From: Escherichia phage Halfdan | Direction: 5' to 3' (one strand) | Sequence record: NC_072811.1 | DNA: 42,858 nucleotides | Shown here: positions 40,701-42,858 of the stretch, piece by piece | How the letters are laid out: every line of letters begins with the position of its first letter | Position numbering within the stretch: position 1 is the stretch's first letter | Notes under the pieces: model-generated | What the model saw: the letters and a program-made list of their open reading frames with translations, nothing else | Databases searched by the model: none | Told to the model about the DNA's origin: nothing | Program-made: the position numbers and the translations under genes

Positions 40701-42835
40701 TGTTCTTCGATGATTTGGATTTAGCGCCGAATAAGCGGTCGAAGGTGAAGACGAAAGGCCCGTTTGTGCCGAAAGTCTTAACCTTCCCCGCAATTATCAA
40801 CCGGCCTTACGTCGAATTTACCGACCGCGAACTATGGGAAGCGCGGGGCGGTACTATGGTTTTCGATATCGAATGTTATTGGAACTATTTTCTAATAGCA
40901 TTTAAGGATATCGCAACGAACAAGGTTGTTACGTTCGAACTGTCGCCAGATTGCCCACAATTCAGCCAAGCGGATTTGAACAAACTTAATTGGGTCGTTC
41001 ATTCGTTCCGGCATATCAGTTTCAACGGTATCAAGTTCGACCGGTTCTTACTGTTCCTTGCGCTGGCCGGTGCGCCAATGAACGTACTTAAATACGTTAC
41101 GAACCGGCTTATCAACGACAACAAGCGGCCGGTTAAAGGCGATGCCGATTACGGACTAGAAACCAAAGACCGCAAGTCGTATCGCAAAGAAGACATAGAA
41201 AAAGAATTCAACATTCGGATACCGGAGTTTAACCACGTTGACCTAATCGAAGTCGCCCCGCTTCAAGCGTCGTTGAAGACGTATGCGGGGCGTTTGCACG
41301 CGCCACGTATGCAAGACTTGCCATACGAACCCGAAACCATATTGACCCGCGAACAGGCGGTTAACGTTCGGTTCTATTGCGTAAACGACTTGGATAACAC
41401 GGCGCTACTGTTCAAGGACTTAGAACCGCAAATTAAGTTGCGTGAACAGCTTTCGACCGAATACGGGCAAGACCTTCGTTCGCTTTCCGATGCACAAATC
41501 GCCGAACACGTATTGTCGGCGGAATGTGAAAAGTTGAACGGATACTATGCCCGCAAACCGAAGATTGCGCCCGGTACTGAATACTATTACGTTCCCCCGG
41601 CTTTCGTTCACTTTCAAACGCCGATGTTGCAACAGATATTGCAACGGCTGGTCGATTCACCGTTCGTAATCAGCGAAAAGGGGCGGCCGAAATCGTCGTT
41701 CCTTAAAGGTCTGAAAATCCGTATAGGCGATTCGGTCTATACAATGGGCGTCGGCGGTCTGCATTCAACCGAGAATTGCGCGGCGCATTATGCCCGCGAC
41801 GGTTACTTGTTGATTGACCGCGACGTTGCATCGTATTACCCGAATATCATTATCAATAACGGATACTTCCCGAAACACCTTGGCCCGGCGTTCCTTACCG
41901 TATATAAGACCATCGTTGCGCGTCGTCTTGAAGCGAAGGGGTTGTCGAAGTCTTCCGACCTGTCGGTCGCAGAACTTAACCAGATTATCGCCGATAGCTT
42001 GAAGATTACGATTAACGGTTCGTTCGGTAAGTTGGGGTCGAAGTATTCGGCGCTGTATTCGCCCGACCTTCTGATTCAAACCACGTTGACCGGCCAACTT
42101 TCGTTGTTGATGCTAATTGAAATGCTGGAACTTGTGGGCATCAAGGTTATTTCGGCGAACACCGACGGTATTGTTATTAAGCCGCACGAAAGCCAGTACG
42201 AACAGCTTAACGAAATTATCGCCGCATGGGAAAAGCTAACCGGTTTTGAAACCGAAGAAACCCAATACAAAGGCGTATTCAGCCGCGACGTTAACAACTA
42301 TATCGCGTTGAAAAAGCATTACGACAAGGCGTCGAAATCTTGGGTCGATACGTTCCCCGAAGGTACGAAGTTCGACAAGCTGTACAAGGGTAAAGGCGTG
42401 TTCGGCGAAACCACGTTGAAGAAACAACCGACCAACGAAATTTGCGCGAAGGCGATTGCGCATTTCCTTATCGAAGGTAAGACCATTGCCGAAACGGTAA
42501 ACGGTTGCCGCGATATCAAGGATTTCGTAACGGTTAAGAACGTGAAGGGCGGTGCCGAAAAAGACGGCTTATTCTTGGGCAAGGCGATTCGCTGGTACTA
42601 CGCGAAAGGCGTTACCGGAACGATTAACTACATTATGAACGGTAACACGGTCGGCAATAGCGAAGGCGCTTGCCCGATTATGGATTTACCCGACGCGTTC
42701 CCGGCTGATATGGATTTCGAACAGTATACGAACATGGCCGAAGATATGTTGTCGGATATGGGCTATTACGGGCCGAAGAAGGCGAAGCGTCCCGACCTGT
42801 TCGAAGACTTGGAAGGGTCGGGCGAAGGCTGGTAA
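40700..42835 (+). CDS. DNA polymerase, family-B-like, with 3'-5' exonuclease domain
   Basis: 711 aa; Exo I FDIEC, Exo II FNGIKFD, Exo III YCVND; polymerase motifs DVASYYPNII, KITINGSFGKLG, ISANTDGIVI. Confidence 0.7.
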   Translation: MFFDDLDLAPNKRSKVKTKGPFVPKVLTFPAIINRPYVEFTDRELWEARGGTMVFDIECYWNYFLIAFKDIATNKVVTFELSPDCPQFSQADLNKLNWVVHSFRHISFNGIKFDRFLLFLALAGAPMNVLKYVTNRLINDNKRPVKGDADYGLETKDRKSYRKEDIEKEFNIRIPEFNHVDLIEVAPLQASLKTYAGRLHAPRMQDLPYEPETILTREQAVNVRFYCVNDLDNTALLFKDLEPQIKLREQLSTEYGQDLRSLSDAQIAEHVLSAECEKLNGYYARKPKIAPGTEYYYVPPAFVHFQTPMLQQILQRLVDSPFVISEKGRPKSSFLKGLKIRIGDSVYTMGVGGLHSTENCAAHYARDGYLLIDRDVASYYPNIIINNGYFPKHLGPAFLTVYKTIVARRLEAKGLSKSSDLSVAELNQIIADSLKITINGSFGKLGSKYSALYSPDLLIQTTLTGQLSLLMLIEMLELVGIKVISANTDGIVIKPHESQYEQLNEIIAAWEKLTGFETEETQYKGVFSRDVNNYIALKKHYDKASKSWVDTFPEGTKFDKLYKGKGVFGETTLKKQPTNEICAKAIAHFLIEGKTIAETVNGCRDIKDFVTVKNVKGGAEKDGLFLGKAIRWYYAKGVTGTINYIMNGNTVGNSEGACPIMDLPDAFPADMDFEQYTNMAEDMLSDMGYYGPKKAKRPDLFEDLEGSGEGW

Positions 42836-42858
42836 AAATTAGCCCCGCTGGCTTGCGC

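What the first reader, a model, noticed from the sequence alone, without database searches (positions are those of the whole stretch)
42829..42858. Window ends are complementary: joining them would create a terminator hairpin
TAGCCCCGC at 42840-42848 is the reverse complement of GCGGGGCTA at 3-11. If the ends are joined, a 9-bp stem with a 12-nt loop forms and is followed, for minus-strand transcripts, by AUUUUU (plus 42834-42839). It lies between the convergent polymerase gene (stop 42835) and the tail fibre gene (stop 71), where a terminator is expected. The window may therefore be a complete circular or circularly permuted genome cut at this point.
Basis: inference. Interest (0 to 1): 0.35.

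Follow-up and report, generated by a model that had tools for sequence, protein, structure and literature searches.

The report
Phage terminator hairpin split by record ends
The two ends of this sequence are the two halves of one ordinary transcription-terminator hairpin, because the window is a complete, circularly permuted phage genome (Escherichia phage Halfdan type) whose database record happens to be opened inside that hairpin.

Summary
Bases 3-11 (GCGGGGCTA) are the exact reverse complement of 42840-42848.

**Complete, circularly permuted genome.**
- Two independently sequenced phages are 98-99% identical to the window: Halfdan_Juelich_variant (42,857 bp) and Shy (42,805 bp).
- Both carry the window's joined ends as uninterrupted internal sequence.
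- Their own record ends join inside the window.
- So the window is a complete genome of a Halfdan-type Lokivirus, opened at a different point.

**The joined hairpin.**
- It is the most stable local hairpin in the genome (+ strand -26.5 kcal/mol; - strand about -22 kcal/mol).
- On the - strand it is followed by AUUUUUACC.
- It sits in the 93-nt gap between the DNA polymerase gene and the last virion-structural gene, which converge.
- Relatives (Pavpe01, phiAxp-1, two IMG/VR contigs) keep a hairpin plus U-tract at the same place.
- The Loki record annotates terminators in the equivalent gap.

**Most likely function.** It is an intrinsic terminator for the late structural operon. It is not a canonical terminator for the polymerase strand, which has no U-tract.

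**Virion ends.** The large terminase is 73% identical to that of Loki, which was shown experimentally to be circularly permuted and terminally redundant. The record ends are therefore almost certainly not physical ends.

The finding is ordinary and of low interest.

The parts
42840..42848 (.). Left arm of the split hairpin (TAGCCCCGC). It is the 5' arm for + strand RNA and the template of the 3' arm for - strand RNA.
   Evidence: Identical in Juelich variant and Shy.
42849..42858 (.). First 10 nt of the apical part (TGGCTTGCGC). On the + strand, TGGC pairs with GCTG (42857-42858 plus 1-2) around a UUGC tetraloop at 42853-42856. The record break lies 4 nt 3' of the dyad centre.
   Evidence: Folds.
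1..2 (.). Last 2 nt (TG) of the apical part, on the other side of the record break.
3..11 (.). Right arm of the split hairpin (GCGGGGCTA).
42834..42839 (-). U-tract of the minus-strand terminator. Plus-strand AAAAAT reads AUUUUU on the - strand, directly after the stem. It overlaps the last two bases of the polymerase stop codon.
   Evidence: 5 U in the first 8 nt after the stem.
15..30 (.). Second, smaller hairpin (GGGGC GTTCGT GCCCC, -10.8 kcal/mol). On the - strand transcript it lies upstream of the terminator. It has no U-tract on either strand.
40700..42835 (+). DNA polymerase gene (711 aa), the last gene of the + strand replication module. Its stop codon lies 4 nt before the hairpin.
   Evidence: phrog_1252 E = 1e-199; annotation of relatives.
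71..721 (-). Gene for a 216-aa virion structural protein, the last gene of the - strand structural operon. Its stop codon is 59 nt upstream of the hairpin on the - strand transcript.
   Evidence: phrog_3398; annotation of relatives.
721..3201 (-). Tail fibre gene (826 aa by the ORF list).

Best explanation
The window is a complete genome of a Halfdan-type Lokivirus, a virulent siphovirus. Its database record was linearised inside a hairpin in the 93-nt gap between two converging transcription units.

- **Layout.** The replication module ends with the DNA polymerase gene on the + strand. The structural (late) operon runs on the - strand from the terminase genes near 22.7 kb down to the 216-aa structural gene ending at 71.
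- **On the real molecule the two window ends are adjacent.** RNA polymerase finishing the structural operon transcribes UAGCCCCGC-CA-GC-GCAA-GC-CA-GCGGGGCUA followed by AUUUUUACC. This is a GC-rich hairpin of about -21 to -22 kcal/mol plus a U-tract, which most likely causes intrinsic (Rho-independent) termination.
- **On the + strand** the same DNA gives an even stronger hairpin (13-14 bp, UUGC loop, about -25 to -26.5 kcal/mol) with no U-tract. There it probably acts as a 3' stabilising stem-loop or a weak pause site for the polymerase mRNA.
[quoted passage not shown] The record ends are then an arbitrary opening point, not physical ends.

Shown here: the complementarity, the contiguity of the junction in relatives, the circular map, hairpin stability and conservation. 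Inferred: actual termination, and the packaging mode.
For: **Circular map.**
- Whole-length two-block alignment to PP954860.1 and colinear alignment to OR996328.1. The window junction is internal in both, and their junctions are internal in the window.
- The junction sequence is identical in both relatives across the hairpin.
- There is no terminal direct repeat in the window.

**Hairpin.**
- Fold energies and structures.
- Rank 1 of all 34-nt windows in the genome on the + strand, and about rank 10 on the - strand.

**Terminator character.**
- 5 U in the 8 nt after the stem on the - strand.
- The location is between converging stop codons.
- The same hairpin-plus-U architecture follows the major capsid gene (16253-16286), the major tail gene (12236-12269) and the primase gene (30564-30598).

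**Conservation**.
- Pavpe01, IMG/VR L018, phiAxp-1 and nyashin all have an AGCCCCG/CGGGGCU-based hairpin a few nucleotides after the polymerase stop codon.
- All four have 4-6 U after the stem on the structural strand.
- L018 changes the innermost pair from C-G to G-C, which is compensatory.
- Loops differ in length while keeping the pairing.
- L017 has a different hairpin at the same place, with U-rich sequence on both sides.
- The Loki record annotates two rho-independent terminators in the equivalent gap.

**Packaging.**
- TerL is 73% identical and TerS 41% identical to those of Loki.
- Experiments on Loki excluded cohesive ends (heat/cool and ligase tests) and excluded fixed ends (BAL-31). 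[quoted passage not shown]
Against: - No RNA 3'-end data exist for this phage.
- The simple terminator scanner did not call the site. The perfect stem leaves a 12-nt loop, above the scanner's 3-8 nt limit, and the + strand lacks a T-run.
- The U-tract is short (5 U) and separated from the stem by one A.
- Apart from one pair, the stem core is invariant among relatives, so covariation support is thin.
- The stem AGCCCCG/CGGGGCU is generic. Of 74 IMG/VR stretches that carry it after TGGTAA, only one is a polymerase homologue. Its sharing with phiAxp-1 could therefore be convergence.
- More distant relatives (phage 73, PaMx42, Kharn, Langgrundblatt1) have abutting or overlapping convergent genes and no gap.
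- The packaging mode is transferred from Loki, not measured.
- The cut falls non-randomly inside the strongest hairpin, and this is unexplained.
Confidence: 0.85

Rival explanations
1. The record ends are real physical ends of the virion DNA (a cos site, a fixed direct-terminal-repeat boundary, or a pac cleavage site inside the hairpin), and the complementarity reflects a terminase recognition or cleavage site.
For: - The cut is non-random. It lies inside the most stable hairpin of the genome (30 nt of 42,858) and 4 nt from its dyad centre.
- Ab_SZ3 and AB_SZL7 records are also opened in the equivalent convergent gap.
- Read-through in other assemblies does not by itself exclude cos or pac.
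Against: - The junction is about 20-22 kb from terS and terL. Cos and pac sites normally lie next to or inside the terminase genes (established knowledge).
- TerL is 73% identical to Loki TerL. For Loki, cohesive ends, fixed ends and a pac fragment were all excluded experimentally (PMC5313236).
- AB_SZL7 carries a 45-nt untrimmed assembly overlap at a non-homologous spot in the gap. Ab_SZ3 was assembled with SOAPdenovo2. Its opening therefore looks like an assembler choice.
- Three isolates were assembled as circles with three different opening points.
Confidence: 0.05
2. The hairpin is real and selected, but its main role is not termination. It could be a 3' stem-loop that protects the polymerase and/or late mRNAs from 3' exonucleases, an RNase processing site, or a DNA-level protein-binding or cruciform site at the module boundary.
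For: - The + strand version is the stronger one (-26.5 kcal/mol) and has no U-tract. On that strand it cannot be a canonical intrinsic terminator.
- A second hairpin follows, and the motif GGCGGGGC is directly repeated at 2-9 and 12-19.
Against: - The U-tract is kept on the structural-operon strand in every close relative that has the hairpin.
- The A/U-tract sits directly at the stem base, as in terminators.
- The two roles are not mutually exclusive.
Confidence: 0.1
3. The end-to-end complementarity is a coincidence of GC-rich sequence with no biological meaning.
For: - 9-nt inverted matches across a random cut do occur, in 0.42% of positions.
- The genome is 54% G+C.
Against: - It is the rank-1 hairpin in the genome.
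- It is identical in two other isolates that differ by 1-2% elsewhere.
- It is conserved with a compensatory change and loop indels in phages whose polymerase DNA is only 70-80% identical.
Confidence: 0.02

Closest known systems
Rho-independent (intrinsic) terminators between convergent phage modules, as annotated in Acinetobacter phage Loki (NC_042137.1, features at 22061-22087 and 21902-21935)
   Same: - Same genomic position: the gap between the DNA polymerase gene and the last structural gene.
- GC-rich hairpin followed by a U-run.
- Same genus (Lokivirus).
   Different: - Loki has two separate unidirectional terminators about 125 nt apart, with unrelated sequences.
- Here one hairpin serves the - strand, and the + strand has hairpins without a U-tract.
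- The hairpin sequence is instead shared with Pavpe01 and the phiAxp-1 group.
Circularly permuted, terminally redundant headful-packaging siphoviruses (Loki, shown experimentally in PMC5313236)
   Same: - Circular assembly map.
- Records of near-identical isolates opened at different points.
- TerL 73% identical to Loki's.
   Different: - Packaging was not measured for this phage.
- The record shows no terminal redundancy, because the assembly was trimmed.
Bidirectional intrinsic terminators (A-tract, hairpin, U-tract) at convergent gene ends
   Same: - One hairpin between convergent genes.
- IMG/VR relative L017 has U-rich tails on both sides, and phiAxp-1 a weaker version.
   Different: In the window only the upstream A-tract exists, which is the U-tract for the - strand. 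The + strand tail is GGCGGGGCG, so the site is unidirectional by canonical criteria.

Membership tests
Intrinsic (Rho-independent) terminator | Stable GC-rich stem-loop in the transcript | tested here: met
   - strand: 9 bp, a 2x2 internal loop, 2 bp and a GCAA loop, -21 to -22 kcal/mol. + strand: 13-14 bp with a UUGC loop, -25 to -26.5 kcal/mol.
Intrinsic (Rho-independent) terminator | U-rich tract immediately 3' of the stem | tested here: met
   Met on the - strand: AUUUUUAC, 5 U in 8 nt. Not met on the + strand: GGCGGGGC, 0 U in 8 nt.
Intrinsic (Rho-independent) terminator | Short loop (3-8 nt), as required by standard scanners | tested here: inconclusive
   The consensus scanner did not report the site, because the perfect 9-bp stem leaves 12 nt. 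Thermodynamic folding closes this into a 4-nt apical loop.
Intrinsic (Rho-independent) terminator | Position just downstream of the last stop codon of a transcription unit | tested here: met
   The site lies in the 93-nt gap between convergent stop codons at 42833-42835 (+) and 71-73 (-).
Intrinsic (Rho-independent) terminator | Structure conserved in relatives, with compensatory change | tested here: met
   Pavpe01, L018, phiAxp-1 and nyashin keep the hairpin and the - strand U-tract. One compensatory pair (C-G to G-C in L018) and symmetric loop indels were seen. The core stem is invariant, so support is modest.
Intrinsic (Rho-independent) terminator | Transcripts actually end at the U-tract | not testable with these tools
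   Needs Term-seq, 3' RACE or an in vitro termination assay.
Circularly permuted headful-packaged phage genome (Lokivirus) | Circular map: record ends are contiguous in the real molecule | tested here: met
   Reciprocal closure with PP954860.1 and OR996328.1. The junction was read directly in both.
Circularly permuted headful-packaged phage genome (Lokivirus) | Large terminase of a lineage with demonstrated headful packaging | tested here: met
   73% identity over 519 aa to Loki TerL. Loki was shown to be permuted and terminally redundant (PMC5313236). Pfam matches to Terminase_3 and Terminase_6N fall below threshold.
Circularly permuted headful-packaged phage genome (Lokivirus) | No fixed virion ends; terminal redundancy above 100% of genome length | not testable with these tools
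   Needs sequencing reads or BAL-31 and restriction mapping of virion DNA. The window has no terminal repeat of 8 nt or more, as expected for a trimmed assembly.
cos (cohesive-end) phage genome | End site adjacent to the terminase genes, with ends that are not permuted | tested here: not met
   terS and terL are at about 20.7-22.8 kb in the window, roughly 20 kb from the ends. Cohesive ends were excluded experimentally for Loki.
Hairpin-telomere linear phage (N15-type, protelomerase) | Perfect palindrome centred on the end point, plus a protelomerase gene | tested here: not met
   The cut is 4 nt off the dyad centre and the repeat is imperfect beyond 9 bp. No protelomerase appears among the 58-60 annotated genes of the near-identical records.

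The most novel reading that the evidence does not exclude
The convergent polymerase/structural gap, and specifically the strongest hairpin of the genome, is a real DNA-level landmark. It might be a packaging-series initiation (pac) site or a preferred breakage or nicking site located about 20 kb from the terminase genes. This would explain why two independent groups' records (this window, and Ab_SZ3/AB_SZL7) are opened in the same small gap. The evidence here makes an assembler or curation cause more likely but cannot exclude this reading without reads.
Probability: 0.04. Interest if true: 0.4.

Novelty: new member of a known kind. Interest (0 to 1): 0.1.

Why it matters
The practical value is mostly for annotation.

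- **Split features.** A feature can be hidden by being split across the ends of a linearised record. Any scan of this record as a linear molecule misses the strongest hairpin and the likely terminator of the late operon.
- **Genome status.** The window is a complete genome. Its ends should not be read as physical termini, att sites or host junctions.
- **Biology.** Nothing here is unexpected. Intrinsic terminators at convergent module boundaries and circular permutation are standard for this phage group.

Tried and rejected
- **Terminal direct repeat in the window:** none of 8 nt or more.
- **Consensus terminator scan across the intact junction in L001:** did not call the site, because of the scanner's loop limit and the missing + strand T-run.
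- **Rfam at the junction and over the whole window:** nothing near threshold.
- **tRNAs:** none.
- **Exact hairpin search in IMG/VR:** no hit.
- **Degenerate search TGGTAA..AGCCCCG..CGGGGCT in IMG/VR:** 74 stretches, of which only one is a polymerase homologue. The stem is therefore a generic terminator motif, not a family signature.
- **MAFFT alignment of the hairpins:** misaligned the arms because of loop indels. I compared the structures by folding each sequence instead and did not use the count of structure pairs.
- **My own loose hairpin-plus-T scan:** over-called heavily in this 54% G+C genome. I used it only to confirm sites already seen in the stability ranking.
- **A hairpin at the AB_SZL7 break point:** dropped, because that record simply carries a 45-nt untrimmed assembly overlap.
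- **Prophage or host flanks:** no match in E. coli complete genomes.
- **Hairpin-telomere and cos readings:** rejected (see the membership tests).
- **Papers on Halfdan (PMC7552041) and phiAxp-1 (PMC4764938):** neither says anything about termini or how the record start was chosen.
- **Pfam on TerL and the polymerase:** no hit above threshold. PHROGs confirmed the functions.
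Full report
**1. The observation**

- 42840-42848 is TAGCCCCGC and 3-11 is GCGGGGCTA, its exact reverse complement.
- Joining the ends leaves 12 nt between the arms (42849-42858 plus 1-2).
- The polymerase ORF (40700-42835) ends with TAA at 42833-42835.
- Plus-strand 42834-42839 is AAAAAT, so a minus-strand transcript reads AUUUUUACC directly after the stem.
- The minus-strand ORF 71-721 has its stop at 71-73. The intergenic gap on the joined molecule is 93 nt.

The match is unlikely to be chance.
- When the circularised window is cut at every position, only 181 of 42,858 cuts (0.42%) give an inverted match of 9 nt or more within 30 nt of each side.
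- I folded every 34-nt window on both strands of the circularised genome. The joined hairpin is the most stable in the genome on the + strand (-26.5 kcal/mol) and about tenth on the - strand (-22.0 kcal/mol).

**2. What the window is**

Megablast of each end against deposited phage genomes found two close relatives:
- Escherichia phage Halfdan_Juelich_variant (PP954860.1, 42,857 bp; taxonomy line Lokivirus; Escherichia phage Halfdan);
- Escherichia phage Shy (OR996328.1, 42,805 bp; Lokivirus).

In both, the last base of the window maps next to the first base of the window (record positions 20658/20657 and 22724/22723). Reading those records shows the junction exactly as predicted by joining the window ends...GGTAAAAATTAGCCCCGCTGGCTTGCGC|TGGCGGGGCTAGGCGGGGCGTTCGTGCCCC....

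Whole-genome BLAST confirms a circular permutation.
- Window 1-20657 aligns to PP954860.1 20657-1 (98.9% identity).
- Window 20658-42858 aligns to 42857-20658 (98.3% identity).
- Shy is colinear in the same circular sense.
- In the other direction, the joined ends of each of those records align as a single 600-nt piece inside the window, around 20657/20658 and 22721/22722.
- A synthetic 1,400-nt junction aligns in one piece over 100% of its length to both relatives.
- The same junction has no match in 5,426 complete E. coli genomes.

The window has no terminal direct repeat. Three independent assemblies, opened at three different points, therefore describe the same circle, and the window is a complete genome. 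It is probably the original Halfdan record described in PMC7552041. That is an inference, because the paper gives neither the genome length nor the opening point.

**3. Gene context**

The annotations of the two relatives and PHROG searches give the layout.
- **Minus strand:** terS (about 22251-22757), terL (20657-22276), portal, head, tail, tape measure, tail fibre (721-3201) and a final 216-aa virion structural protein (71-721).
- **Plus strand at the other end:** a replication module ending with the clamp and the DNA polymerase (40700-42835).

The junction is thus the gap where the late structural operon and the replication module converge.

**4. Anatomy of the hairpin**

- **Minus-strand RNA.** UAGCCCCGC / CA / GC / GCAA / GC / CA / GCGGGGCUA, then AUUUUUACC. 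This is 9 bp, a 2x2 internal loop, 2 bp and a GNRA-type tetraloop, at -21 to -22 kcal/mol.
- **Plus-strand RNA.** The CA/CA mismatches become U.G and G.U wobble pairs. The stem is then continuous (13-14 bp) with a UUGC loop, at -25 to -26.5 kcal/mol. The tail is GGCGGGGCG, with no U in 8 nt.
- **Second hairpin.** A smaller hairpin lies at 15-30 (GGGGC GUUCGU GCCCC, -10.8 kcal/mol) with no U-tract on either strand.
- **Direct repeat.** GGCGGGGC occurs at 2-9 and again at 12-19.
- **Record break.** It lies 4 nt 3' of the dyad centre, inside the apical stem extension.

The consensus terminator scanner did not call the site on an intact copy. Its loop limit is 3-8 nt for a contiguous stem, and the + strand lacks a T-run.

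**5. Comparative evidence**

- **Pavpe01** (Pseudomonas syringae phage; polymerase DNA about 80% identical) has the same hairpin minus the outer pair, with UUUUAUUA on the structural strand.
- **IMG/VR contig L018** (polymerase 76% amino-acid identity) has AGCCCCGG...CCGGGGCU. The innermost pair is C-G in the window and G-C here, a compensatory change. Its apical part differs but still pairs, and the tail is UUUUAUUA.
- **Achromobacter phages phiAxp-1 and nyashin_LB6** (polymerase DNA about 70% identical) have AUAGCCCCG-GAAA/GGAA-CGGGGCUAU directly after the same ...AGCTGGTAA stop context. They have UCUUUUACC on the structural strand.
- **IMG/VR L017** (63% amino-acid identity) has a different hairpin (GCCCGG) at the same place, with U-rich tails on both sides.
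- **The Loki record** annotates two rho-independent terminators in the equivalent gap.
- **More distant relatives** (phage 73, PaMx42, Kharn, Langgrundblatt1) have abutting or overlapping convergent genes and no gap.

One caveat applies. The stem AGCCCCG/CGGGGCU is a generic terminator stem. It follows TGGTAA in 74 IMG/VR stretches, of which only one is a polymerase homologue. Many of those are flanked by A- and U-tracts. This fits the terminator reading but weakens any claim of specific homology with the Achromobacter phages.

Within the window, hairpin-plus-U sites of the same style follow the major capsid gene (16253-16286), the major tail gene (12236-12269) and the primase gene (30564-30598). 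A bidirectional-looking one sits at 24580-24613.

**6. Mechanism**

- **Most likely:** an intrinsic terminator for the late structural operon on the - strand.
- **On the + strand:** the same DNA gives a very stable stem-loop without a U-tract. It probably acts as a 3' end stabiliser or a weak pause, and true termination of the polymerase transcript occurs by other means. This part is inference.
- No RNA data are available, so termination itself is inferred from anatomy, position and conservation.

**7. Are the ends physical?**

- The large terminase is 73% identical over 519 residues to that of Acinetobacter phage Loki, and TerS is 41% identical.
- For Loki, experiments excluded cohesive ends (heat/slow-cool and ligase tests) and fixed ends (BAL-31). 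No pac fragment was seen. [quoted passage not shown]
- The junction lies about 20 kb from the terminase genes.

The virion DNA of this phage is therefore most likely permuted, and the record ends are arbitrary.

One point remains unexplained: why the opening falls inside the strongest hairpin, which covers 30 nt of 42,858.
- The Halfdan paper used CLC and SPAdes assemblies and does not describe how starts were chosen.
- Ab_SZ3 was assembled with SOAPdenovo2. Its sister record AB_SZL7 has the same opening and a 45-nt untrimmed overlap. Both are opened in the equivalent gap, at a non-homologous spot.
- This hints at an assembler tendency to break circles in such hairpin-rich regions. From my own knowledge, Illumina sequence-specific errors at inverted repeats and GGC motifs are a plausible cause. 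This cannot be tested without reads.
- A physical end remains a low-probability alternative, at about 5%.

**8. Comparison with what is known, and novelty**

Intrinsic terminators between convergent phage modules and circularly permuted Lokivirus genomes are both well known. The specific hairpin may not be annotated in this record, but it is an ordinary member of a known kind.

**9. Verdict**

Interest is low (0.1). The main value is practical. The window should be treated as a circle, its ends should not be interpreted as termini, and features spanning the record break should be looked for.

Noticed in passing
window 42839-42858 + 1-14; L008/L009 (AB_SZL7 record ends): The record is opened inside the single most stable hairpin of the genome. 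Ab_SZ3 (assembled with SOAPdenovo2) and AB_SZL7 (45-nt untrimmed overlap) are opened in the equivalent polymerase/structural convergent gap. This may reflect an assembler bias to break circular phage assemblies at hairpin-rich terminator regions.
   Followed up: partly
whole window vs L010 (PP954860.1) and L011 (OR996328.1): Phages 98.3-98.9% identical to the window are recorded as isolated on E. coli K-12 (Shy) and on Pseudomonas taiwanensis (Halfdan_Juelich_variant). The next relative, Pavpe01, infects P. syringae. That is an unusually wide host span for near-identical genomes, if the host fields are accurate.
   Followed up: no
window 15689-18070 (+), overlapping 16292-17260 (-) and 17276-17977 (-): A 793-aa ORF runs antisense to the scaffold-like and major capsid genes. 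The Juelich record annotates a 674-aa 'hypothetical protein' on that strand in place of the capsid genes, whereas Shy annotates the major capsid protein. This is probably a spurious antisense ORF and an annotation error.
   Followed up: no
window 2-9 and 12-19; 15-30: GGCGGGGC is directly repeated with a 10-nt period next to the terminator's right arm. The second copy is part of a smaller hairpin (GGGGC GTTCGT GCCCC), which could offer an alternative 7-bp pairing partner for the left arm.
   Followed up: partly
window 16253-16286 (-), 12236-12269 (-), 30564-30598 (-), 24580-24613 (both), 36067-36100 (+): Other strong hairpins followed by U-runs lie just after the major capsid, major tail and primase genes, before the lysis cassette, and after the gene that ends at 36061. 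They are likely intrinsic terminators that define the transcription units.
   Followed up: partly
window 24778-24811; 35923-35995: There is a perfect 17-nt tandem duplication (CGGGGATTTCTTCGGCG x2). There is also an imperfect 12/21-nt repeat (CCAGCAGGGCAA), probably encoding a Gln/Gly-rich tail of the single-strand-binding-type protein.
   Followed up: no
L010 (PP954860.1) 2-1561 and 41239-42855: In the Juelich variant record the portal and large terminase are annotated only as misc_features ('similar to'), and the record is opened between them. This suggests frameshifts or a re-orientation error in that deposit.
   Followed up: no
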